64,000 nucleotides of DNA, taken from contig JAQBVR010000001.1 in assembly GCA_027623015.1 (NCBI GenBank), positions 14,773 through 78,772 on the forward strand, written 5' to 3'. The stretch's first letter is position 1, and each line of letters starts with the position of its first letter. Below the pieces are notes generated by a model. That model did no database searches, was not told the origin of the DNA, and saw only the letters and a list, made by a program, of their open reading frames with translations. This DNA comes from a bacterium (GTDB lineage: Bacteria; Patescibacteriota; Gracilibacteria; Peribacterales; Peribacteraceae). Position numbers and translations under genes: made by a program. Shown one piece after another: positions 6,693 to 63,370 of this stretch.

Positions 6693-8696
6693 CTACCATA
6701 AGAATCCTGGAGCACGAGAGCGAATCTTGTTCCTTTCGAGTTTAGCATTGTGGTCCACTCTGGCTGCAAGCACTTCGTAGAGCGGCGCTTCTCGTCGGTA
6801 GATACGTGCAAAGGTATCTGCCAGATCTATGAAATCCTCTACATTTGGCGATAGGGCTATGAAGTGGGTGTTCTTTGTGATGGCATCCGCAAAGCCACGT
6901 AAGAGTACATCGACTTCTTCTCGACGATCATCTACAGATTTGCGACCACCTCTATCGAGTTCTATAGCGATGATACCACCCATAATTCCAATGTCATTAA
7001 ACCCACCAAGTGATAAAGCATGTTCGTAGTCCTCAATCGCACCTTGTGTTTCACTTTGAAGATTGCGCAGAGCAGCGCGCCTCTTCCATGCCCGAGCATC
7101 TTCTCCGTTCCTTTTGAAGTACTCCGCAATAGCATCATTTGCTCTGCCATACTTACCCATATCTGTAAGGATCTCTGCCCTACTAAGTTGTAAGTCTCTT
7201 GCAAAGAGCTCACCCGAAGCTCTGTTGAACCAGATCATAGCAGCCTCAGAGTCCCCTGCTGCTTGCGCATGACGCCCTACAGATGATAGTACTAGATACC
7301 CTCCTTCAAGGATTGCGAAAGTAAGAAATATAATAGCTATTACCATCTCTGTGTGTCGTGCGATATACGCTGGAGCTCGCTTTGCCTTAGCCCACTCTAT
7401 GCGACTTGCTAGTACTCCAAGGAGTAACCAAAAGAGCATCGCTATAGAAACGAACTGCATGTTATAGTCTATGAGGTTGTGTGCCAGAGATCCCGCTAAG
7501 GCTACGCTAAGGAGTACACCAAAAGAGGCATGGTGTGGCCGTATAAATTCCTTTTTAAACTCTCCCTGTAAACCAGAGAGCATAACAGATCCAAAGAGCA
7601 CGAGAAGTGCAATAGCAACAGGCCAACCACGTTCGGCAGCAGCTTTTAGAAACACATTGTGTGGATGGTCTGATGTTGCTAGGACAGTAGTTTGGAATCG
7701 AGGTTGTACAAATCTGAAACTATACGGACCCCAACCAAACAGCGGCTTCTGGTTTGCTAGTGCTATAGCTTGCACCCAGAATTCTTGGCGCTCAGACACA
7801 GAGGATACACCTTCGTCTGCTGAGAACGTTACCTTTTCATTTACGGATATCACGTCATGTACGCGTTGCCTGAGAGCATTGGCAGCGCTGAAGTATGTCA
7901 GTGCAACAAGGAAGATGCCAGCTGTAACTGCAAGAACCTTTTTCCATGGAAAAGACTTTTTGAAGATGAAACCGTATAACGCTCCAAGTAGTACAAGCTG
8001 GCCACACAGTGCGATAGTTGCTCCGCGTGAGTAACTCAAGAAGAACGAGCCAAGCACGATGCCAACAGCGACACACCTTACCGCTGTATCTATGACTGTT
8101 TGCCTGTCCAGTTTAACAAAGCTCCACCCGCGAAATGCCCAGTAATAGACAAAAGGCCATGTCAGAAGTACAAAGTTGCTCCATGCATTTGGCCAGTAGT
8201 CAGTATGAAACCTCGCATCAAAGAATGTACCAACAAAGCGGTTTACTGGTTGCAATGTGTAGACAGCAAATCCGATACCACATGCAGTAAGTGTTACTAT
8301 CGCAATAGTACGAATGAGCTGAAGAAGAGTCTTATCGTAGAGTCTTTTATTCTGCGATGCCGTAAGTCGAACGACCCAAAGAAAAAGTAGTCCACAGGCT
8401 CCTGTTCGTAAGAGTTCGTCGAACCCATAATTTTGCGTACTTGAGAATGCAAAACTTATGAAGGTCCAACATATGAGAAAAATAACTGGTGCCCACAGCG
8501 CAAGATGAACACTGTCTTTTGCGTCTGTCCTCTTGAGAGTTTTATGAAGAAAGATAGTAAGAGCAAAAACAGCGCCAGCAAATATCCATGTTGACTCAAG
8601 ACTCTTGCCTCCTTTCCAAAGAACAGCAAAAGCAATCAGGGCAAAGATCCCATGGATGATATGATCTGTGGTGAGCGGTTTTCGAAGAAACTGCAT
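6693..8696 (-). CDS. O-antigen ligase-like (Wzy_C family) polytopic membrane protein with C-terminal TPR-like region
   Basis: More than 10 predicted TM helices. The loop SDHPHNVFLKAAAERGWP matches the conserved H-x-H-N...G signature of O-antigen ligase/polymerase domains. The C-terminal soluble part has TPR-like repeats (AIAEYFKRNGEDARAWKRRAALRNL, AIEDYEHALSLG). Confidence 0.7.
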   Translation of the reverse strand: MQFLRKPLTTDHIIHGIFALIAFAVLWKGGKSLESTWIFAGAVFALTIFLHKTLKRTDAKDSVHLALWAPVIFLICWTFISFAFSSTQNYGFDELLRTGACGLLFLWVVRLTASQNKRLYDKTLLQLIRTIAIVTLTACGIGFAVYTLQPVNRFVGTFFDARFHTDYWPNAWSNFVLLTWPFVYYWAFRGWSFVKLDRQTVIDTAVRCVAVGIVLGSFFLSYSRGATIALCGQLVLLGALYGFIFKKSFPWKKVLAVTAGIFLVALTYFSAANALRQRVHDVISVNEKVTFSADEGVSSVSERQEFWVQAIALANQKPLFGWGPYSFRFVQPRFQTTVLATSDHPHNVFLKAAAERGWPVAIALLVLFGSVMLSGLQGEFKKEFIRPHHASFGVLLSVALAGSLAHNLIDYNMQFVSIAMLFWLLLGVLASRIEWAKAKRAPAYIARHTEMVIAIIFLTFAILEGGYLVLSSVGRHAQAAGDSEAAMIWFNRASGELFARDLQLSRAEILTDMGKYGRANDAIAEYFKRNGEDARAWKRRAALRNLQSETQGAIEDYEHALSLGGFNDIGIMGGIIAIELDRGGRKSVDDRREEVDVLLRGFADAITKNTHFIALSPNVEDFIDLADTFARIYRREAPLYEVLAARVDHNAKLERNKIRSRAPGFLW

Positions 8697-8785
8697 GCTG
8701 CTATTTTGTCATATATGATCGGTAAAAGCACGTACATTGATCCTGTCAGTAGGTTGATCTTATGATAACCTGTAGGTACTAGCAG

Positions 8786-8990
8786 TCCGTCTACGTTCTG
8801 AGGAACTTCGGACGGGTGAATGACTCAATAATTGATTATTCTGGTAAGATGTTTGTACAGTGCCGACCCTCCTACGCTGAAGCTTCGAAGGGCAGGCGTG
8901 GCGGCCCGCCTTCGTCCGCTGCGGCGGACTTCGGACGGGTGAATGACTCAATAATTGATTATTCTGGTAAGATGTTTGTACAGTGCCGAC
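8786..8990 (+). repeat. Reiterated leader modules upstream of tRNA-Leu(CAG): an identical 63-nt block at 8805..8867 and 8928..8990, plus three related GC-rich hairpins (8786..8816, 8867..8892, 8905..8939)
   Basis: Direct comparison of the sequence. Both 63-nt blocks read ACTTCGGACGGGTGAATGACTCAATAATTGATTATTCTGGTAAGATGTTTGTACAGTGCCGAC. The hairpins share the CCC[G/T]CC-T(A/T)CG...CTTCG-GA[C/A]GGG architecture. Confidence 0.85.
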
Positions 8991-9070
8991 GTGGCGGAAT
9001 GGTAGACGCGCACGCTTCAGAAGCGTGTAGGAGTATTCCTGTGAGAGTTCAACTCTCTCCGTCGGCACCA
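8985..9070 (+). tRNA. tRNA-Leu (anticodon CAG), class II, CCA encoded
   Basis: Acceptor GCCGACG/CGTCGGC. D-arm GTGGCGGAATGGTAGACGC. Anticodon stem-loop CACGC-TTCAGAA-GCGTG. Long variable arm. T-arm GAGAG-TTCAACT-CTCTC. Terminal ACCA. Confidence 0.92.
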
Positions 9071-9139
9071 ATTATTAATTCAGCTCTATTCTAAGCCATA
9101 AATAGGCTATTGAATTGTTGCTGAATTTCAAGAAGTAGG

Positions 9140-9145
9140 CATAAT
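9140..9145 (+). promoter_or_regulatory. -10 box CATAAT, 7 nt upstream of ATG 9153 (leaderless-type promoter)
   Basis: The sequence reads GGCATAAT TATATCT ATG. There is no Shine-Dalgarno sequence. Confidence 0.45.
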
Positions 9146-9152
9146 TATATCT

Positions 9153-12100
9153 ATGGTCTTACAGGGAGTTGATTTCAATGGCATGGGAGAATTAGAAAGA
9201 GCTGAAATCTCTGAATTGTGGCATTATGGAGACGAGGTAACTAGAAGAAACATCTTTGATCGACTATATGGAGAAGCTGAGTCTGGGCTTGTTGAGGCTA
9301 GAGCAAATGTAAATGGAGGTACTACTAGTGAATTTGATGCTGAGATGCTGCAAATAAGTCAGAATGCACTTGATGGGAATCGAAGAGTGATGGGAAATCT
9401 TCTTGAAAATGCTCCAGGACTTACCAAAAAGAAGGCTGCTGAATGGACAAGGTACATGAGTGATAGACAAGAAGGATTTCGTAGAAACTTTGATCAAGCT
9501 ATAGAAGTGACAAACAGAGTTGCAGATCGTCTCGAAAGTCTAGGGACTCCTTTTGATTTTACTGATATGGAGCAGTTTACTATATTTCAATCAAGCATAG
9601 GTGAAGCTAGAGAAGCAAATGACAGTGAATTGGCTGTAATAGAGAAACTGAGAAATAACCACCCAAGAGCTGCTGAACGGCGAGAGTTTCTGGTGCAGGA
9701 CAACAAATATCTGAGACAAGCGTCAAAAGACTATACTCAAGCTAAAAAACAGTTCCCACTTAAAGAAGCATCTATACAAACGAATCAAGCGATGCGGAAA
9801 TTTAGAGACCATAAATCCTTGGACGATTGCAAAACATTTTATGAGGTTCGAAGTTTTCGTGAAACTCTTAAAAGTGCATGGAATACGAATGCACAGGAAT
9901 CTGAGATCATCGATGAGCTAAAATTTGAGCACCCACAGAAGGAAAACAGACTAGATACGCTACAAGCAAACTATGAGGTTCTACAGCCTTTAGGAAAGCC
10001 CACAGAAGAAAGATTTAGCATGCTGAAGCAAACAACTCCTGAGATAGAGCTCGTTGACGATATGGAAGATCGTTTTGCTGCTGTCATCGAAGGGCGTCGT
10101 CCTGAAATGGAAAAAGCTCAAAAGATTGCATCTGACATAAAAGCTGCAATGAAAGAAGATCCTGACCCCATAAAGCTCTACCTGACAGAGATGGGCGCAG
10201 TACCACTACTCAAACGTCCAGATGAAGATGAGCTTTCGTATTTATTCGAACAGTCAGAACTTGCACGAAGGCAGCATGCTCTCACCTCTCCATTTCTTGT
10301 TGAGCGAGCCATCTCTATGATAAACAGAGTACGAGATGGAACACTCCCCGCTGAGCGAACCATGGAGATAAATGCTACAAAGGGTCAGCTACTGCGATAT
10401 GGAGCATCTGAAGAAGAAGTAGCTGAACTTAAGAAAAGAGAATATCCTGGAGTAAATCCTGTGGCTGCAATGGAACGCTACGAAGGCCATATGAAACTAA
10501 TACAGAAACTACAAGAAAGATGTAAATCCAACTATACGACTATGCGATCTGCACAAAGTGCTGAAAAGGGAGTGAAAGCTAAGGAAGCACGAGATAGTGA
10601 CCTTCTGAAAATCTCTATGTTACTCGATGAGATGTCGATACGACGCGATAAGTTTGAGCCGCACATTAAGTCTCTCAAAGAGATACTTTCTAGAATGGAA
10701 ACTCTTCAATCTGCAATTGAGATTACAGACAAAAGTTATGGCCCAGGAGGAAGAATGCAGTACCCGAAAGATCAGATCACTCTTACCGAATCTATAGTCT
10801 CACCACCTGGAGTGCGACGTGCTATAAAGGGAAGAGTAGTGATGCAATCTGCTGGTAAAGATGTTGAGCGAACAATTGTCACAGACTACTCTGGAGAATT
10901 TGGAAGACTACAAAAACCAGCTGCTCATGCAGTATTCAAAAGTGGATCGAATTCGAAAGGTGCTGCTGCAGACCCTGCTCGCATAGAGGCAAAAAGAGTC
11001 ATGGAGCAAGAACTTCAAACTCTTGTTGAAATGACACAGCAAACACCTGAAGAGCTCCGAGTATGGATGGAAAAGTATGACAAGATTGTTAAATTGAATA
11101 GTCGAGTTTCTGATGAGCGTGTTACTGCTAACTTACGTCTAGTCATTCACAACGCAAAGAAGTACAGACATAGAGGACTTGATTTTCTTGAACTGATCCA
11201 AGAAGGAAGCGCAGGACTTTTGCGTGCAGAGACAAAGTTTGAGCCAAGAAAGGGGTTTAAGTATTCAACATACGCAACATGGTGGATCAAACAAGCATGT
11301 GGTCGCGCTGTTGCAGACCATGCTCGACTCATCCGTATCCCCGTTCACAACATAGCTGTATTTAAACACATCAAAACGATAAATGACGACTACCTCAACA
11401 CACTAGGACGGGACGCAACTACGGAAGAGATTCATGCCAAGCTTCCAGAGCTCATGGCAAAGCCACCAGACTTCACTACTCTGCAAGAGCTACGCACTAT
11501 TTGGAAGAATCCTTCCTCTCTCGATGCTCCTGTTGGAGAAGATGGTGGATCTTCTACTGGAGACTTTGTAGCTGATAATAAAAGTAGTGCATCTATGAGT
11601 GCAGCGGAAAACAGATTGCTTGGTGACCAATTCGATACGCTACTACGCAATGTCGATAAACGAAGTGGAGACATCGTTAAGCTGCGCTTTGGGCTCGCTA
11701 GTAAAGTTGTCATTTCTGTGCAACGAAAGGTTTTTATCGAGTTTTTGACTTCGAAAGCAGGCACTGTAGGAGAGCGTGAAGGTGACTCCCCTGCTGGCTT
11801 TATCACCATTGATGGCATAGCGATTATTGAAAGTGATTTTGTACAAGCGGAAGGAGAATATGACGTTTCCGACATTGAAGATGCTTACCTTGAAACAGAT
11901 GAGACTATCGAGAACTCTACTCTTGAAGCAGTCGTTACTACTGCTGCCGACGAGCCAGAAGGTACTACTGACCAGCAAGATGAAGAGCCTGCTGAAGAAC
12001 TAGATTCGACTGGGAATACAATTGACGAGAATACGATCACATTTACAATATCTGGATACCCTTGCACTCTTGAACAAACTGGAAAGCTCCACGGCGTAAC

Positions 12101-12221
12101 TCGAGAGCGCATACGTCAGATAGAAAAGAAGGCACTCAAAAGACTAACTGCAGATGCAACTCGCACTGGAATGGAAAGCCACTTTGAGCCAGAGGGTGCT
12201 AAAGACGACGATGAACTCTAA
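9153..12221 (+). CDS. Giant (1022 aa) sigma-70 family factor with N-terminal extension and two large insertions
   Basis: Region 1.2: YLTEMGAVPLLKRPDEDE. Region 2: [73 protein letters not shown]. Region 3/4.1: SLDAPVGEDGGSSTGDFVAD...DIVKLRFGL. Region 4.2 HTH: [27 protein letters not shown]. Confidence 0.85.
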   Translation: MVLQGVDFNGMGELERAEISELWHYGDEVTRRNIFDRLYGEAESGLVEARANVNGGTTSEFDAEMLQISQNALDGNRRVMGNLLENAPGLTKKKAAEWTRYMSDRQEGFRRNFDQAIEVTNRVADRLESLGTPFDFTDMEQFTIFQSSIGEAREANDSELAVIEKLRNNHPRAAERREFLVQDNKYLRQASKDYTQAKKQFPLKEASIQTNQAMRKFRDHKSLDDCKTFYEVRSFRETLKSAWNTNAQESEIIDELKFEHPQKENRLDTLQANYEVLQPLGKPTEERFSMLKQTTPEIELVDDMEDRFAAVIEGRRPEMEKAQKIASDIKAAMKEDPDPIKLYLTEMGAVPLLKRPDEDELSYLFEQSELARRQHALTSPFLVERAISMINRVRDGTLPAERTMEINATKGQLLRYGASEEEVAELKKREYPGVNPVAAMERYEGHMKLIQKLQERCKSNYTTMRSAQSAEKGVKAKEARDSDLLKISMLLDEMSIRRDKFEPHIKSLKEILSRMETLQSAIEITDKSYGPGGRMQYPKDQITLTESIVSPPGVRRAIKGRVVMQSAGKDVERTIVTDYSGEFGRLQKPAAHAVFKSGSNSKGAAADPARIEAKRVMEQELQTLVEMTQQTPEELRVWMEKYDKIVKLNSRVSDERVTANLRLVIHNAKKYRHRGLDFLELIQEGSAGLLRAETKFEPRKGFKYSTYATWWIKQACGRAVADHARLIRIPVHNIAVFKHIKTINDDYLNTLGRDATTEEIHAKLPELMAKPPDFTTLQELRTIWKNPSSLDAPVGEDGGSSTGDFVADNKSSASMSAAENRLLGDQFDTLLRNVDKRSGDIVKLRFGLASKVVISVQRKVFIEFLTSKAGTVGEREGDSPAGFITIDGIAIIESDFVQAEGEYDVSDIEDAYLETDETIENSTLEAVVTTAADEPEGTTDQQDEEPAEELDSTGNTIDENTITFTISGYPCTLEQTGKLHGVTRERIRQIEKKALKRLTADATRTGMESHFEPEGAKDDDEL

Positions 12222-31786: not shown

Positions 31787-31805
31787 AGCTATACTCTGTT
31801 TAATT

Positions 31806-31977
31806 GCCGCTGTGGTGGCCCGCCTACGTCTGCGGACTTCGGACGGGTGAATAGCTCTGAAATAGCTCTTTGTGATAACATCTCTGTAATTGCCGCTGTG
31901 GTGGCCCGCCTACGTCTGCGGACTTCGGACGGGTGAATAGCTCTGAAATAGCTCTTTGTGATAACATCTCTGTAATT
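31806..31977 (+). repeat. Two perfect 86-nt tandem units upstream of tRNA-Leu(TAA). Each unit is the first 13 nt of the tRNA, a GC-rich hairpin and an AT-rich spacer.
   Basis: Units 31806..31891 and 31892..31977 both read GCCGCTGTGGTGG CCCGCCTACGTCTGCGGACTTCGGACGGG TGAATAGCTCTGAAATAGCTCTTTGTGATAACATCTCTGTAATT. The intact tRNA starts at 31978 with the same 13 nt. Confidence 0.9.
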
Positions 31978-32065
31978 GCCGCTGTGGTGGAATGGTAGAC
32001 ACGGGGGACTTAAAATCCCCTGACCTTAAACGGTCGTACTGGTTCGAATCCAGTCAGCGGCACCA
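31978..32065 (+). tRNA. tRNA-Leu (anticodon TAA), class II, CCA encoded
   Basis: Acceptor GCCGCTG/CAGCGGC. D-arm GTGGTGGAATGGTAGACAC. Anticodon stem-loop GGGGA-CTTAAAA-TCCCC. Long variable arm. T-arm ACTGG-TTCGAAT-CCAGT. Terminal ACCA. Confidence 0.92.
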
Positions 32066-45422: not shown

Positions 45423-45507
45423 TGGTGGGCCGGGAGGGATTCGAACCCCCGAAGGCGGAGCCGCCTGGTTTACAGCCAGGTGCGTTTGTCCACTTCGCTA
45501 CCGACCC
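45423..45507 (-). tRNA. tRNA-Tyr (anticodon GTA), class II, CCA encoded
   Basis: The minus strand reads GGGTCGG TA GCGAAGTGGACAAACGC A CCTGG-CTGTAAA-CCAGG, then a long variable arm, then GGGGG-TTCGAAT-CCCTC CCGGCCC ACCA. Confidence 0.9.
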
Positions 45508-45567
45508 ACAATTGAATTCGAGCTAAGTCCGAGCCTGTAAGGCGATGGACAAAGCCGAAGATACTAT

Positions 45568-45626
45568 GTCCGCCGAAGCTTGCTTGCTGGCCATAGCATG
45601 TAGTGCGACGGCTGGCGTAGGCGGAC
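45568..45626 (-). other. GC-clamped hairpin in the tRNA-Tyr leader, related to the tRNA-Leu leader hairpins
   Basis: The minus strand reads GTCCGCC-TACG-(37 nt)-CTTCG-GCGGAC. This is a perfect 7-bp outer stem with the same TACG / CTTCG junctions as the Leu-leader hairpins. Confidence 0.5.
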
Positions 45627-45871
45627 AAATACAGATAAAGAGCAGATGTGGACAAATTATGTAAGCCCACATCGCTATTGTAACCAAAAAGCCCAGAGCT
45701 ACAAGGAAAGATGGAAGAAGATTAGAGATATCCCATTGAACTCATCTTAAAAACTGTAATCCATACCCCATTTCGGAGCTGTCGTCGCTTGAATATGGTT
45801 AATAATTGACTATAATAGAGGTGTTATTTCTTTCCCAATTTCTATCTATGTGCAAGGGATAAAAACTCTTT

Positions 45872-53896: not shown

Positions 53897-56143
53897 ATGG
53901 CTCGAACACGACGTAGACGGCGTACTAAGAGGAAGAAAAAGAATAGTTGGAATCTGGGTGAAAGTACACGCCGCCAGATCAGCGGAACTGTACAATTGTG
54001 TTTTGGCATGCTTCTGTTTCTTGTCTTGCAACAACAGGCAGGGGTTTTAGGAGAAAGCTTGCGTCGGTCTATGACGTTTCTCTTTGGCAACTACAGCTCT
54101 GTATTTCCTGTGACATTGATCTTATCTGGTCTCATCCACTGGTTTGCAAAACCAAACAAGAAAGGAAAGATCTCTACCATGCGCTGGTTAGGACTTGCGA
54201 TGTGCCTTGGAGCATTTCTCGGGATCATGCATATAGGAGCACCTCTTGAAGAAATAGGAGTGCGTTTCACAGAGCTTGGTGGTGCTATCGGGTTTATGAT
54301 GAGCATGCCATTTCTGATGTTTGCTAGTCGGGAGGTTGGCTACACCGTACTTGTTTCTGTATTCATCGCAGGACTCTTCATCTCCTTTGAACCAGACCTT
54401 GTGGGCATCTCGGAAAAGATAAACAAGATGGTAAAGAAGAAGCAAAAAGCTAAACGAAAAGCTAGACGAGTAGCTGCCGAAGAAGATGAATATGAAGAGG
54501 AGGAAGAAGAAGACGAGGAAGAAGAAGAGGAGGAAGAATGGGAGGAGGAAGATGCAGAAGACCTCATAGAAGAAGACTCCGAAGCTCCAGAGCTGAATAT
54601 TGTTCGTCCTTCGTTTGCGAAGAAAGTCCTCCAGAAGACCACACAAAAAAGCATCAAGGATCAGCTAAAAGACACTCTGCAAATGCAAGATACACGCTAT
54701 GAGGAATGGACGTTCCCCGCTTACGACCTCCTCGATGATGCACAAAGTGAACTCAAGATTGATGACGAACAACTCAAGCTGCAAGCACGTCTTATCGAAG
54801 AGAAGTTTCAGGAATTTGATATCGAGGTAACAATGAAGGACGCACACCCTGGCCCTACAGTTACTCAATTTACTCTGAAGCCATCGGAAGGTGTAAAGCT
54901 AAGTAAGATCAGTGCACTCAAAAGTGATCTTGCACTTGCACTTGCAGCTCCTAGCCTCCGCATAGAAGCACCTATCCCTGGTAAATCCCTTGTAGGTATC
55001 GAAATGCCAAATTCAGAACGTACAACTGTCCATCTTCGTGAGATTCTTGAGAGTCCTGAGTTCGTAGAAAGTGAATCAAACCTTACACTCCCACTTGGTC
55101 GGGATGTGTCTGGAAACGCTACAGTCTGTGCGCTCGATACTATGCCTCACCTTCTCATCGCAGGAGCGACAGGCTCTGGTAAGTCTGTCTGTATGAATAC
55201 GTTCCTTACAGCACTGCTCTACCAGAATGCTCCAGATCAACTCAAACTCATCTTGATAGACCCGAAACGTGTAGAGCTTATGCCATACGATAACATCCCT
55301 CATTTACTCACTCCTGTTATCACGGATGCTGAGAAAGCTCTTCAAGCTCTCAGGTGGACTGTTGCAGAGATGGGACGGAGACTTCACCGTTTTTCAGAAG
55401 CGGGTGTACGAAACATCGAGGAATTCAATGAGAAGCAAGAGAATGATGAAAGTGTTCTCCCTCGTATTGTTATCGTTATCGATGAGCTTGCAGACTTGAT
55501 GATGCGTCAGTACCGCAGAGATACAGAAACAATGATAGCACGCATAGCGCAGATGGCTCGTGCTGTTGGTATGCACTTGATTCTCGCAACACAGCGACCA
55601 AGCGTAGATGTTATAACAGGACTCATCAAAGCAAACATCCCAACGCGTATCGCTTTCCGAACAGTAAGTGCAGTGGATAGTCGCACGATCATAGACTCCA
55701 TTGGATCAGAAGATCTCCTAGGTAAAGGGGACATGCTCTACATGACAGCGGAGACATCTCGTCCAGTTCGAATCCAAGGAATCATGATCGGTACAAAAGA
55801 AGTTGAACGTGTGATCAATGCTGTAAAAATTGCAGGAGGAGGAAAGATTACCCAAGATATCGGTCTTCTCGATAGAGACGATGAAGACGAGATGAATGAA
55901 CAAGATATTATGCAGCACATCGATCTAGAAGCAGATGATAATGGAGGGGATGATTTGTTTTTCGAGGCTGTTCGTGTCATACAAGAAACAGGAAAAGCAT
56001 CTGCAAGCCTGCTTCAACGTCGTCTCAGTGTCGGCTACGCACGTGCAGCTAAGCTACTCGACATCATGGAAGCGAAGGGTCTCATTGGCCCTCCAAACGG
56101 AGCAAAAGCCCGAGAGGTATACCTAGAGAAACTTGCAAACTAA
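53897..56143 (+). CDS. ftsK: DNA translocase FtsK
   Basis: N-terminal TM helices and an E-rich linker. Motor domain with LIAGATGSGKSVCMN (Walker A) and IVIVIDELADLMM (Walker B). Gamma wHTH: ASASLLQRRLSVGYARAAKLLDIMEAKGLIG. Confidence 0.92.
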   Translation: MARTRRRRRTKRKKKNSWNLGESTRRQISGTVQLCFGMLLFLVLQQQAGVLGESLRRSMTFLFGNYSSVFPVTLILSGLIHWFAKPNKKGKISTMRWLGLAMCLGAFLGIMHIGAPLEEIGVRFTELGGAIGFMMSMPFLMFASREVGYTVLVSVFIAGLFISFEPDLVGISEKINKMVKKKQKAKRKARRVAAEEDEYEEEEEEDEEEEEEEEWEEEDAEDLIEEDSEAPELNIVRPSFAKKVLQKTTQKSIKDQLKDTLQMQDTRYEEWTFPAYDLLDDAQSELKIDDEQLKLQARLIEEKFQEFDIEVTMKDAHPGPTVTQFTLKPSEGVKLSKISALKSDLALALAAPSLRIEAPIPGKSLVGIEMPNSERTTVHLREILESPEFVESESNLTLPLGRDVSGNATVCALDTMPHLLIAGATGSGKSVCMNTFLTALLYQNAPDQLKLILIDPKRVELMPYDNIPHLLTPVITDAEKALQALRWTVAEMGRRLHRFSEAGVRNIEEFNEKQENDESVLPRIVIVIDELADLMMRQYRRDTETMIARIAQMARAVGMHLILATQRPSVDVITGLIKANIPTRIAFRTVSAVDSRTIIDSIGSEDLLGKGDMLYMTAETSRPVRIQGIMIGTKEVERVINAVKIAGGGKITQDIGLLDRDDEDEMNEQDIMQHIDLEADDNGGDDLFFEAVRVIQETGKASASLLQRRLSVGYARAAKLLDIMEAKGLIGPPNGAKAREVYLEKLAN

Positions 56144-61789: not shown

Positions 61790-63223
61790 CTATGCCATCT
61801 TCTTGTCTTTCATCTCTTCTACACCAAAGTCTGGATCGAAGAACGGATTGCTAGGAACAAATCCTGCTCTCTTTGGAGCCTCACCGTGCTCACGAATAGT
61901 CATTGAACGTGGATGGTCACGCATTTTCTGGAGCACTTTTGCTTCGATCTGACGGATTCGCTCACGTGTAACACCAAACTCTTTTCCTACCTCCTCCAGA
62001 GTGTGTCCGATACCATCACTGAGTCCAAATCGCATCTCAACGATCTTACGTTCACGTGGAGTGAGGAACTCTAACATGGAGTGTACGTTTTCCTTCTTGA
62101 GCTGACGGCTTGTTGCATCAAAGGGATTGATGGCCTCCTCATCTTCGATAAAGTCTCCAAGCTTACTATCTTCTTCACTTCCAACTGGAGACTCAAGTGA
62201 GATGATATCTTGGCTGATCTTCTGAATGTGACGCACTTTTTTCACGTCCATCTCCATCTCAACAGATAGCTCTTCTACAGTTGGCTCACGTCCAAGCTCT
62301 TGTACGAGACGACGTTGTGTATGTGTAAGCTTATTAATGGTCTCTACCATGTGCACTGGAATACGAATAGTACGCGCTTGGTCTGCAATTGCACGCGTGA
62401 TAGCCTGACGTATCCACCATGTCGCATATGTAGAGAATTTAAATCCACGCTCTGGGTCAAACTTCTCTACAGCACGAAAGAGTCCGATATTTCCCTCTTG
62501 GATAAGATCTAGGAATGAAAGTCCGCGGCCAATGTACTTCTTTGCTATAGAAACAACCAATCGAAGGTTTGCTTCAGCAAGTTGTTGTTTTGCAGATGCG
62601 TCACCTTTGCGGATGCGACGAGCAAGCTCTACTTCTTTTTTTGCATCAATCAGTGGAACACGACCTATCTCTGAGAGATACATTCGTACGGAGTCATTGC
62701 TGATCTCAAGAAGGTCTACCTCTCGCTCACGTCGACGCTTTGTCTTTTCCTCTTCATTAATATCTTTCTCATCTATGGCAATACCAGCTGTAGCAATCAT
62801 ATCACGCATTTCATCATTCTTATCACTCTTCTCCACCTTAGATTCGACATCTTCGGTATCGTCGTCATCGTCGTCATCGTCATCAAATCCAATATCGACA
62901 TCGACATCGACATCTGCATCGTCTGAACTAACGATCTCTGTAAGGTCTTCTGTAGGTTCACCAATATCTGCTTTTGTTTTCTTCTGCCATATAAGAGCGT
63001 CTTTTACATCGATTACTTGAATACCAAGATCCACGAGCAATGAGTAAATATCATCAAGTAGATCGACGTTTGTCTCTGCGTTTGGCACCACAGCCATAAT
63101 TTCTTGATGTGTCACATATCGTTGTTCTCTGCCTTTTTTAATCAAATGCCTTACCTCATCAGGAAAACCTTTCAGATCTTCATCTGTTGGTTGCGCGATG
63201 AATTTACGTGGATGCGAAGCCAT
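61790..63223 (-). CDS. rpoD: Primary sigma factor RpoD
   Basis: From ATG 63223 (MASHPRKF...). It has an acidic region 1.1 and region 1.2 [23 protein letters not shown]. Region 2: [73 protein letters not shown]. Region 4.2: [27 protein letters not shown]. Confidence 0.93.
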
Positions 63224-63370
63224 AAGTCCGAAGTAGCCTAAACCTCTTCTCTGTATAAGGAAAGTGAATTTATGGGGAAATAGGGCAAAATTGAGAAGAT
63301 GCAGATGAGTTAGAGGATGTAGAGGATACAGATGAAATGCTATAATTCTTTGCATCTTTTGAATCTTTCG

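What the first reader, a model, noticed from the sequence alone, without database searches (positions are those of the whole stretch)
8786..9070. tRNA-Leu(CAG) is preceded by reiterated modules that copy the tRNA 5' end and carry a covarying GC-rich hairpin
A 63-nt block (ACTTCGGACGGGTGAAT...TGGTAAGAT...GTACAGT GCCGAC) occurs twice, exactly 123 nt apart (8805..8867 and 8928..8990). The second copy runs straight into the intact tRNA. The first copy ends with the same first 6 nt of the acceptor stem (GCCGAC). It is then interrupted by 30 nt, resumes with the next tRNA nucleotides (GTGGCGG), and then diverges into a hairpin. Three hairpins of one family are present. The first is at 8786..8816: TCCGTC-TACG-TTC(TGAG)GAA-CTTCG-GACGGG. 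The second is at 8867..8892: CCCTCC-...-GAAGGG. The third is at 8905..8939: CCCGCC-TTC-GTCCGC(TGCG)GCGGAC-TTCG-GACGGG. Differences in the outer stem are compensatory: G:C becomes T:A at position 4, and the C.A mismatch at position 5 becomes T:A in one copy. The inner stem varies from 3 to 6 bp and keeps a TGMG tetraloop where it is present (two of the three copies). Each module also carries an extended -10 (TGGTAAGAT) about 11 nt before the tRNA or tRNA-fragment start. Upstream modules should therefore produce short transcripts made of a leader, the acceptor 5' strand and a hairpin. I know of no described element with this layout. It could be a tandem promoter/insulator array, a processing or decoy RNA, or the footprint of a small element that targets the tRNA 5' region.
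Basis: seen in the sequence. Interest (0 to 1): 0.75.

Follow-up and report, generated by a model that had tools for sequence, protein, structure and literature searches.

The report
Hairpin insertion cassette in tRNA-Leu genes
The repeated modules in front of this tRNA-Leu gene are real, and are most likely copies of a small hairpin-carrying insertion cassette that lands at nucleotide 13/14 of tRNA-Leu genes in one group of uncultured bacteria and leaves the gene intact because its first 13 nucleotides are repeated on both sides.

Summary
The window holds six hairpins of one family. All lie upstream of its three tRNA genes and on the tRNA strand.

The hairpin is not tRNA-specific. The same ~30-nt element (CCCGCC-TWC-[variable inner hairpin]-TTC-GGACGGG-CAGGC) occurs in about 45 low-GC genomes, including Patescibacteria, a cultured Flavobacterium isolate and MAGs labelled as other phyla. 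Most copies are far from tRNAs and some lie in frame inside genes.

The special feature is a ~75-80-nt cassette, hairpin + TGAATNNCTC + 44-45-nt spacer. It sits after nt 13 of three different tRNA-Leu genes (CAG and TAA here, GAG in another Peribacteraceae lineage). In the TAA and GAG genes it is flanked by direct repeats of tRNA nt 1-13. At CAG the leftmost hairpin has no fragment upstream. Relatives have empty sites.

Best reading: a non-autonomous insertion cassette with tandem amplification, probably neutral. The insertion enzyme is unknown.

Copy number is unreliable. Another public version of the same scaffold has 4.2 units at TAA rather than 2.2, and an N-gap in the CAG array.

Short decoy transcripts and restriction to class II tRNAs are not supported.

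The parts
8737..8766 (+). Sigma-70-like promoter match TTGATC-N18-TATGAT upstream of the whole array (candidate native promoter)
   Evidence: It is the only + strand consensus promoter match in 8600-9200.
8786..8816 (+). Hairpin H1 (TCCGTC-TAC-GTTC TGAG GAAC-TTC-GGACGGG)
   Evidence: 32.9 bits.
8817..8861 (+). Spacer B, copy 1 (45 nt). It starts with TGAATGACTC and contains the extended -10-like TGGTAAGAT at 8842-8850.
   Evidence: Homologous in register to the spacer at the TAA locus: 29/44 identical, p<5e-5.
8862..8867 (+). Truncated tRNA copy, nt 1-6 (GCCGAC)
8868..8897 (+). Hairpin H2 with the canonical CAGGC tail. It is a clean 30-nt nested insertion between tRNA nt 6 and 7 of the truncated copy (boundary ambiguous by 1 nt) with no target duplication.
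   Evidence: 39.4 bits. The CAGGC tail matches the family consensus.
8898..8904 (+). Truncated tRNA copy, nt 7-13 (GTGGCGG)
   Evidence: family D7.
8905..8939 (+). Hairpin H3, joined directly to tRNA nt 13
   Evidence: 37.8 bits. Nearly identical to the copy in Peribacteria locus L091.
8940..8984 (+). Spacer B, copy 2 (identical to copy 1)
   Evidence: In the ENA version an N-gap and a third copy follow here.
8985..9070 (+). Intact tRNA-Leu(CAG)
31806..31818 (+). tRNA-Leu(TAA) nt 1-13 fragment attached to the native leader
31819..31977 (+). Two cassettes: hairpin (31819-31847) + 44-nt spacer (31848-31891) + nt 1-13 fragment (31892-31904), then hairpin (31905-31933) + spacer (31934-31977). Together with the fragment at 31806-31818 they form exact 86-nt units (31806-31891, 31892-31977).
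   Evidence: 2.2 copies, 100% identical. The ENA version has 4.2 copies.
31978..32065 (+). Intact tRNA-Leu(TAA)
45567..45627 (-). Hairpin H6 (TGTCCGCC-TAC-GC...GC-TTC-GGCGGACA) with a 35-nt expanded inner loop, 59 nt upstream of tRNA-Tyr. No tRNA fragment accompanies it.
   Evidence: 13.7 bits, E=0.2, not in the seed. The same subtype (pair 1 U-A, no bulge) occurs in L042 and L070.
45423..45507 (-). tRNA-Tyr(GTA)

Best explanation
The modules are copies of a small non-autonomous insertion cassette of about 75-80 nt. Each cassette is a GC-rich hairpin of a widely dispersed repeat family, then TGAATNNCTC, then a 44-45-nt promoter-like spacer. In Peribacteria (CPR) the cassette sits at nt 13/14 (start of the D-loop) of tRNA-Leu genes.

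Where the native leader is visible upstream of the array (the TAA locus here and the GAG locus in Peribacteraceae), the cassette is flanked by direct repeats of tRNA nt 1-13, sometimes with a few leader bases. The layout is then: native promoter, truncated 5' fragment, cassette, complete tRNA. The gene survives because nt 1-13 are present again downstream of the insert. At the CAG locus no fragment precedes the leftmost hairpin H1. The tRNA is then made either by read-through from the native promoter followed by RNase P cleavage, or from an extended -10 inside the spacer.

Exact multi-unit arrays arise by repeated insertion into the regenerated target or by unequal crossing-over. They are unstable, or at least unresolved in assembly. 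Bare hairpins of the same family can also insert alone, as H2 did.

Shown: the architecture, its recurrence, empty versus filled sites, homology of the cassettes, and the dispersed family.

Inferred: mobility of the cassette as a unit, and near-neutrality.

Unknown: the enzyme. One candidate is a site-specific recombinase that uses nt 1-13 as its core, a mirror image of the classical tRNA 3'-end att site. The other is transposition with staggered cuts.
For: 1. The architecture 'nt 1-13 | hairpin | TGAAT.. spacer | intact tRNA' occurs in three different tRNA-Leu genes. The junction is the same (after GTGGYGG) and the hairpin-to-tRNA distances are 45, 44 and 45 nt.
2. The spacers are homologous in register: CAG vs TAA 29/44 (p<5e-5; 21/34, p=6e-4 without the first 10 nt), and CAG vs the GAG locus 24/45 (p=5e-5). 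They do not resemble the native leaders of relatives.
3. Orthologous empty sites exist. L141 (GroEL 83%) has Wzy_C, an 82-nt spacer and tRNA-Leu(CAG), with no hairpin and no fragment. L128, L132 and L136 are empty at purB-tRNA-Leu(GAG), whereas L124-126 are filled. In the PurB tree the empty L128 is nested among filled lineages.
4. The native promoter always precedes the truncated copy.
5. The GAG architecture is identical in three independent assemblies and contains no long exact repeat, so it is not an assembly product.
6. The hairpin family is dispersed and insertion-like. About 45 low-GC loci carry it. H2 is a nested insertion. There is a 13-nt target duplication in L036. It sits in frame inside tsaD. 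Hairpins lie inside pseudo-tRNA copies in L084, L082 and L129.
7. Family-wide covariation supports a real hairpin.
8. All six window copies lie 5' of the three tRNAs, with none elsewhere in 64 kb or in 10 kb of adjoining scaffold.
Against: - No transposase, integrase or reverse transcriptase was found in the window or in flanks already annotated.
- Most family members show no target duplication.
- No tRNA fragment lies upstream of H1, so the CAG array does not fit a simple 'fragment-cassette-fragment' scheme.
- H1 and H3 precede identical spacers yet differ completely in their 5' halves.
- In L127 and L130 the same 13/14 junction carries a filler not recognisable as the hairpin.
- L129 has a longer decayed pseudo-tRNA. 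This argues that at least some events are plain tandem duplications.
- Spacer similarity could partly reflect shared promoter constraints.
- Only two genomic lineages were sampled.
- Some 'other phylum' hits may be mis-binned CPR contigs, although L015 is a cultured Gelidibacter isolate.
Confidence: 0.5

Rival explanations
1. Plain local tandem duplication came first, by replication slippage or unequal crossing-over over promoter, leader and the tRNA 5' part. The dispensable upstream copy then decayed, with dispersed hairpins inserting into it and deletions trimming it. In this view there is no cassette and no site specificity.
For: - L129 has an upstream pseudo-tRNA reaching nt 24 plus a decayed anticodon arm, and a second copy of its own -10/leader.
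- L082 and L084 show pseudo-tRNA copies riddled with hairpins at various positions.
- The L124 spacer's 3' part weakly resembles its own native leader (22/45, p=0.017).
- The exact 86-nt and 123-nt units are typical of recent slippage.
- H2 shows that hairpins insert into dead copies.
Against: - The hairpin lies exactly at the unit boundary, after nt 13, in three different tRNA-Leu genes.
- Spacers at different loci are homologous to each other in register, but not to the native leaders of relatives.
- The hairpin-to-tRNA distance is the same, 44-45 nt, at all three loci.
- H1 and H3 differ although the repeats that follow are identical.
Confidence: 0.22
2. The array is a selected regulatory device. 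It could be tandem tRNA promoters separated by a structured insulator, by a protein-binding hairpin placed just upstream of the -35 region, or by a leader or decoy RNA (nt 1-13 + hairpin) that modulates pre-tRNA folding or processing.
For: - All three tRNAs in the window have a family hairpin 45-59 nt upstream on the same strand.
- An extended -10 (TGGTAAGAT / TGATAACAT) sits in the same register in both window spacers.
- The 13-nt fragment is 13/13 conserved in L124, L127 and L130.
- The L127 and L130 fillers are 88% identical despite 77% PurB identity.
- Folding lets the upstream fragment compete for the acceptor 3' strand.
Against: - Close relatives do without it.
- Copy number differs between assemblies of the same sample.
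- There is no terminator signature.
- The same hairpin sits in ORFs and random intergenic sites in other genomes.
- The consensus scan, which requires both hexamers, reports no promoter in the spacers.
- The -10 is degenerate in the L124 spacer.
Confidence: 0.13
3. The repeats are an assembly artefact, either collapsed or chimeric paths through a repeat, or mixed strains.
For: Two public versions of the same region disagree: 2.2 vs 4.2 units at TAA, and at CAG a closed array vs a 100-N gap with an extra spacer copy.
Against: - The nt 13|hairpin junction and the H2-interrupted fragment are unique sequences that must exist in reads.
- Both versions share every junction type.
- The same architecture, without long exact repeats, is identical in three independent assemblies of another organism.
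- Only the copy number is in doubt, not the existence of the modules.
Confidence: 0.04

Closest known systems
REP/BIME elements and REPINs mobilised by RAYT (IS200/IS605-like Y1) transposases (Bertels & Rainey 2011, PMC3116915; other details from my own knowledge)
   Same: A short GC-rich imperfect palindrome with a bulge that makes it asymmetric. A conserved short flank lies on one side only (CAGGC, i.e. 5'-GCCTG on the other strand). Copies are many, dispersed and mostly intergenic, and no coding capacity is present.
   Different: Near-identical copies occur in genomes labelled as several different phyla. Copies also sit in frame inside genes. There is no GTAG-type 5' tetranucleotide. The window copies are not inverted doublets. 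No RAYT gene was seen. REPs are not known to carry a spacer or to be flanked by tRNA 5' fragments.
Integrase att-site duplications at tRNA genes, and integrase-less remnants flanked by att sites (CIME-type cis-mobilisable elements; from my own knowledge)
   Same: The insert is flanked by direct repeats made of a tRNA segment, the gene stays intact, relatives have empty sites, and tandem accretion is possible. Classical-looking 13-18-nt 3'-end duplications do occur at the same tRNA-Leu genes in relatives.
   Different: Here the repeated segment is the 5' end (nt 1-13), so the insert lies between the native promoter and the gene. The insert is only 75-80 nt. No integrase was found.
Rickettsia palindromic elements (mentioned in PMC1779305; details from my own knowledge)
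   Same: Selfish palindromic repeats that can lie in frame inside protein genes and in RNA genes.
   Different: RPEs are about 100-150 bp and confined to Rickettsia. No target duplication or promoter-bearing spacer is known for them.
Cyanobacterial small dispersed repeats and other MITE-like mini-elements (Elhai et al. 2008, from my own knowledge; cited in PMC3116915)
   Same: Hairpin units of about 20-30 nt, nested insertions, and presence in several genera.
   Different: The sequence is unrelated. No tRNA 5' targeting or duplication has been described. MITEs have terminal inverted repeats and a fixed-length target duplication, which the hairpin family lacks.
Tandem P1/P2 promoters of stable-RNA operons (general knowledge)
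   Same: Two or more promoter-like units in tandem upstream of a stable RNA gene.
   Different: The units here include a copy of the first 13 nt of the mature RNA plus a mobile-type hairpin. They are absent in close relatives.

Membership tests
REP/REPIN (RAYT-associated) | Short GC-rich imperfect palindrome present in many dispersed copies | tested here: met
   About 45 low-GC loci carry it, some with 2-3 copies per 8 kb. The stem has a bulged A.
REP/REPIN (RAYT-associated) | Extragenic location | tested here: not met
   It lies in frame inside tsaD and inside ORFs of 338-1736 aa.
REP/REPIN (RAYT-associated) | Conserved GTAG/GTGG-type tetranucleotide at the 5' foot | tested here: not met
   The 5' flank is not conserved. 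Only a 3' CAGGC/CAAGC tail (TGAAT in the Peribacteria subtype) is conserved.
REP/REPIN (RAYT-associated) | A cognate RAYT (Y1 transposase) gene in the genome, flanked by REPs | not testable with these tools
   None was found in 64 kb plus 10 kb. No whole genome was available.
REP/REPIN (RAYT-associated) | REPIN doublets, meaning two REPs in inverted orientation | tested here: not met
   All six window copies are on the tRNA strand and occur as single units.
MITE | Terminal inverted repeats plus a target-site duplication of fixed length | tested here: not met
   Flanking direct repeats are no longer than in controls for most copies. The exceptions measure 13 nt (L036) and 57-59 nt.
Integrative element / CIME at a tRNA att site | Insert flanked by direct repeats made of a tRNA segment, with the gene intact | tested here: met
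   nt 1-13 is repeated at the TAA locus and in L124. At CAG the internal cassette (H3 + spacer) is flanked by nt 1-13, the upstream copy split by H2, but no fragment precedes H1.
Integrative element / CIME at a tRNA att site | Empty site in related genomes | tested here: met
   L141, L128, L132-135 and L136-140.
Integrative element / CIME at a tRNA att site | The repeated core is the 3' part of the tRNA (anticodon loop or T-loop to the 3' end) | tested here: not met
   The core here is the 5' end, nt 1-13. The 3' type does occur separately in relatives.
Integrative element / CIME at a tRNA att site | A cognate integrase in the genome, with excision demonstrated | not testable with these tools
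   No integrase is present in the window. No read-level data were available.
Intrinsic terminator / attenuator | GC-rich hairpin followed by a U-tract | tested here: not met
   The terminator scan found nothing at either Leu locus. The hairpins are followed by TGAAT or CAGGC.
Any curated RNA family (Rfam 15) | A match to a covariance model | tested here: not met
   Only the three tRNAs reach gathering score. Nothing relevant appears at E<=10 in 8700-9100.

The most novel reading that the evidence does not exclude
The cassette is a new type of miniature site-specific element that is the mirror image of classical tRNA-targeting islands. It would recombine in the D-loop region (nt 12-16) of tRNA genes and use the tRNA 5' end as its core. 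It would bring its own promoter-like spacer so that the gene stays expressed. An unidentified recombinase or ssDNA transposase, acting in trans, would mobilise it by recognising the hairpin. That hairpin family would itself be a selfish repeat able to move between distant bacterial groups, including into ORFs and tRNA loops.
Probability: 0.25. Interest if true: 0.75.

Novelty: new variant of a known kind. Interest (0 to 1): 0.5.

Why it matters
If the reading holds, it adds a way in which tiny selfish repeats coexist with essential single-copy genes in the small genomes of CPR bacteria. Insertion into a tRNA gene is tolerated because the 5' end, and perhaps a promoter, is regenerated.

It would document 5'-end targeting of tRNA genes, the opposite polarity to the well-known 3' att sites. 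It would also flag a ~30-nt hairpin family shared by distant bacterial groups whose mobilising enzyme is unknown.

There are practical consequences. These arrays break or collapse short-read assemblies, as shown here by two disagreeing versions of one scaffold. They also create pseudo-tRNA fragments that can confuse annotation.

If it is only slippage plus junk insertion, it is an ordinary scar of genome turnover.

Tried and rejected
- A homologue search with the neighbouring 1022-aa sigma factor gave no relative above 39% identity over a quarter of the protein, so it was useless for synteny. GroEL and PurB were used instead.
- Rfam at gathering score and at E<=10 gave nothing but tRNAs.
- Literal sequence searches of the literature and keyword searches found no description of the hairpin or the layout. 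One keyword search failed on syntax.
- An IMG/VR scan for the canonical hairpin gave 0 hits, so phage carriage has no support.
- A general target-site-duplication test on about 50 family copies showed no excess over controls, apart from L036, L084 and the window-type loci.
- High-GC hits of the genome scan are chance or coding matches (for example the metK motif) and were discarded.
- Local alignments of the spacers with harsh gap and mismatch penalties were not significant. The in-register test was.
- The non-hairpin filler of L127 and L130 is not significantly similar to the hairpin, so calling it a decayed copy was not adopted.
- A 9-nt match between H1's 5' half and the L141 leader (CTACGTTCT) was not significant: 67 of 500 shuffles scored as well.
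- Folding the whole leaders gave no decisive structure.

Full report
**1. What is in the window**

- An exact 63-nt repeat lies at 8805-8867 and 8928-8990. The second copy runs into tRNA-Leu(CAG) at 8985-9070.
- The first copy ends with tRNA nt 1-6 (GCCGAC). A 30-nt insert follows, then nt 7-13 (GTGGCGG, 8898-8904), then a hairpin.
- The locus reads: promoter match TTGATC-N18-TATGAT (8737-8766), H1 (8786-8816), spacer B (45 nt, 8817-8861), tRNA nt 1-6, H2+CAGGC (8868-8897), nt 7-13, H3 (8905-8939), spacer B (8940-8984), tRNA.
- tRNA-Leu(TAA) shows the same logic more cleanly. It has nt 1-13 (31806-31818), a hairpin (31819-31847), a 44-nt spacer, nt 1-13 again, a hairpin, a spacer, and then the tRNA (31978-32065). 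These form exact 86-nt units.
- tRNA-Tyr has a larger hairpin of the same family 59 nt upstream and no fragment.
- I built a covariance model from 33 family members and ran it over all 64 kb with filters off. It finds exactly these six copies, all on the strand of the downstream tRNA, and nothing else above noise.
- Ten further kb from an adjoining scaffold contain neither a tRNA nor a hairpin.

**2. The hairpin itself**

- Folding gives a 6-bp outer stem with a bulged A, a symmetric pyrimidine internal loop (UWC/UUC), and an inner stem-loop of variable length.
- Single copies are only modestly more stable than shuffles.
- A pattern scan of one genome per species returned two kinds of hit. High-GC hits are chance or coding matches. 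About 45 low-GC loci share CCCGCC-TWC-G[inner hairpin]C-TTC-GGACGGG followed by CAGGC or CAAGC.
- The low-GC loci come from Patescibacteria of many classes, Bacteroidota (including a cultured Gelidibacter isolate), Ignavibacterium, Micavibrio and others. Mis-binned CPR contigs may inflate this spread.
- The inner hairpin differs in length and sequence from copy to copy but is always self-complementary. Additional copies found by the model show outer pair 1 switching C-G to U-A and loss of the bulge.
- Pair counts: 96% of cells are paired, 35 cells have changes on both sides, and 0 of 500 shuffles reach the covariation score. The outer stem was partly fixed by the search pattern. The inner stem was not.
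- H2 carries the canonical CAGGC tail. H1, H3 and the two hairpins at the TAA locus (31819-31847 and 31905-31933) carry TGAAT instead.

**3. The hairpin is not a tRNA element in general**

- In the 46 low-GC loci, most copies are not within 300 nt of a tRNA.
- Copies occur in either orientation relative to neighbouring genes. Several lie inside long ORFs in the sense orientation.
- One lies in frame within tsaD in two species.
- No copy of the canonical form occurs in IMG/VR.
- There is no Rfam match, and literal sequence searches found no paper.
- It behaves like a REP-, RPE- or MITE-like selfish repeat, but it fails several defining features of each family (see the membership table).

**4. 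What is specific: a cassette at nt 13/14 of tRNA-Leu**

- I scanned JGI metagenomes for the junction 'GTGGYGG + hairpin'. This returned one contig carrying tRNA-Leu(GAG). Its layout is GCCCAGGTGGCGG (nt 1-13), a hairpin, TGAAT plus 40 nt, and then the intact tRNA.
- The same structure is identical in three independent assemblies.
- By PurB this organism is Ca. Peribacteraceae. By GroEL (82-83%) the window organism is also Peribacteria.
- The three modules align colinearly. After the hairpin all have TGAATNNCTC, and the hairpin-to-tRNA distance is 45, 44 and 45 nt.
- The spacers are homologous in register: CAG vs TAA 29/44 (p<5e-5), and CAG vs GAG 24/45 (p=5e-5). They do not resemble the native leaders of relatives.
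- So hairpin plus spacer is one unit of about 75-80 nt, present at three different tRNA-Leu isoacceptor genes.

**5. Empty and filled sites**

- The orthologous CAG locus in a relative (L141, same Wzy_C neighbour) has 82 nt between Wzy_C and the tRNA. It has a good promoter match by eye (TTGCAC-N16-TATACT, not run through the scan), no hairpin and no fragment.
- At purB-tRNA-Leu(GAG) the states are as follows:
  - L128 (83% PurB), L132-135 and L136-140 are empty.
  - L124-126 carry the hairpin cassette.
  - L127 and L130 carry nt 1-13 plus a 66-nt filler not recognisable as the hairpin.
  - L129 has a longer, decayed pseudo-tRNA.
- In a PurB tree the empty L128 is nested among filled lineages. 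This implies a precise loss or several gains.
- The conserved native promoter always precedes the truncated copy, so the insert lies between the promoter and the gene.

**6. Mechanism**

The minimal description is an insert after nt 13, flanked by direct repeats of nt 1-13, which leaves a complete gene downstream. This description fits the TAA and GAG loci. At CAG no fragment precedes H1.

I favour a non-autonomous cassette that inserts site-specifically and is then amplified in tandem. Two routes are possible:
- recombination with nt 1-13 as the core, a mirror image of classical 3' att sites;
- transposition with staggered cuts.

Observations that do not fit neatly:
- There is no fragment upstream of H1.
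- H1 and H3 share their last 12 nt and identical downstream sequence but differ completely in the rest.
- L127 and L130 carry a different filler at the same junction.
- L129 looks like a plain tandem duplication.

Analogous 5' fragments with hairpin-rich filler precede tRNA-Thr, tRNA-Ser and tRNA-Pro genes in other genomes. Their breakpoints fall at nt 12-16. Hairpins also sit in loops of pseudo-tRNA copies. This hints at a preference for the D-loop region or for single-stranded tDNA, but it remains an inference.

**7. Function**

- The terminator scan finds nothing, so short terminated transcripts are not predicted.
- TGGTAAGAT and TGATAACAT are in-register extended -10 matches in the two window spacers. 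The consensus scan, which requires both hexamers, reports no promoter there.
- The L124 spacer has lost its -10.
- The simplest expectation is read-through from the native promoter and RNase P cleavage. The array would then be neutral baggage.
- Two observations leave room for selection: the 13/13 conservation of the fragment in three lineages, and the 88% identity of the L127 and L130 fillers.

**8. Assembly caveat**

- The window corresponds to the NCBI contig version, which joins two ENA scaffolds.
- The ENA scaffold has 4.2 exact units at TAA, against 2.2 in the window.
- At CAG the ENA scaffold has a 100-N gap followed by a third spacer copy.
- All junction types are shared. The modules are therefore real, but their number is unknown.

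**9. Verdict**

The kind is known (small selfish hairpin repeats; insertions flanked by tRNA-derived direct repeats). The variant, with 5'-end polarity, a cassette with a spacer, and a hairpin family shared across distant bacterial groups, appears to be undescribed. The mechanism is unresolved.

Noticed in passing
window 31801-31990 vs L002 4302-4663; window 8940-8984 vs L001 2640-2830: Two public versions of the same region differ in repeat copy number. The TAA array has 2.2 units in the window and 4.2 in the other version. In the other version the CAG array is broken by a 100-N gap, with an extra spacer copy after it.
   Followed up: yes
L141 2527-2640; L124 4059-4165; L127 4855-5035(-); L132 3476-3660: The last 13-18 nt of tRNA-Leu (including CCA) are duplicated downstream of ~85-190-nt fillers. 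The fillers are rich in other hairpin repeats and partly homologous between loci, like classical att-type scars or miniature elements.
   Followed up: partly
L050 449-480 and L109 74-105; also L024, L028, L032, L091: The hairpin lies in frame (translated TRLRQGFGRA) inside the tsaD gene of two Patescibacteria species. It also lies in the sense orientation inside other long ORFs of up to 1736 aa.
   Followed up: partly
L082 ~6780-7150; L087 4247-4480(-); L112 3370-3640: Truncated 5' copies (nt 1-12 to 1-16) of tRNA-Thr, tRNA-Ser and tRNA-Pro lie 130-250 nt upstream of the intact genes, separated by hairpin-rich filler. L112 also has a partial 3' duplicate.
   Followed up: partly
L084 5141-5420(-): In a Patescibacteria genome an intact tRNA-Leu(TAG) is preceded by a partial copy (59 nt identical). 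That copy's T-loop carries the family hairpin plus a second hairpin, and its acceptor strand differs from the intact gene's.
   Followed up: partly
L060 7900-8000(-): In a Peribacteraceae contig the hairpin (antisense) appears to sit inside the anticodon loop of a tRNA-like sequence with an intact T-arm and 3' end. The locus ends before the 5' half, so it is unclear whether this is a gene or a pseudogene.
   Followed up: no
window 9153-12221 (+): A 1022-aa sigma-70 family protein with a ~600-aa N-terminal extension has no homologue above 39% identity (over 23% of its length) among 5.8 billion proteins. A second, ordinary 521-aa RpoD is at 61790-63355(-).
   Followed up: no
L013, L042, L068, L070 (around the hairpin hits): Other GC-rich hairpin repeat families co-occur and cluster with the hairpin in CPR and Micavibrio contigs. 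Examples are GTCATTGCGAGCG...GCAATCC and GCTCGGCTTCGCTACGCTACGCCGAGCAGGC.
   Followed up: no
window 45567-45627 (-): The tRNA-Tyr hairpin has a 35-nt non-palindromic expansion in place of the short inner hairpin, possibly a nested insertion.
   Followed up: no
window 54479-54552: A 15-nt tandem repeat (GAAGAGGAGGAAGAA, 4.9 copies, 84% matches) lies inside the FtsK-like ORF.
   Followed up: no
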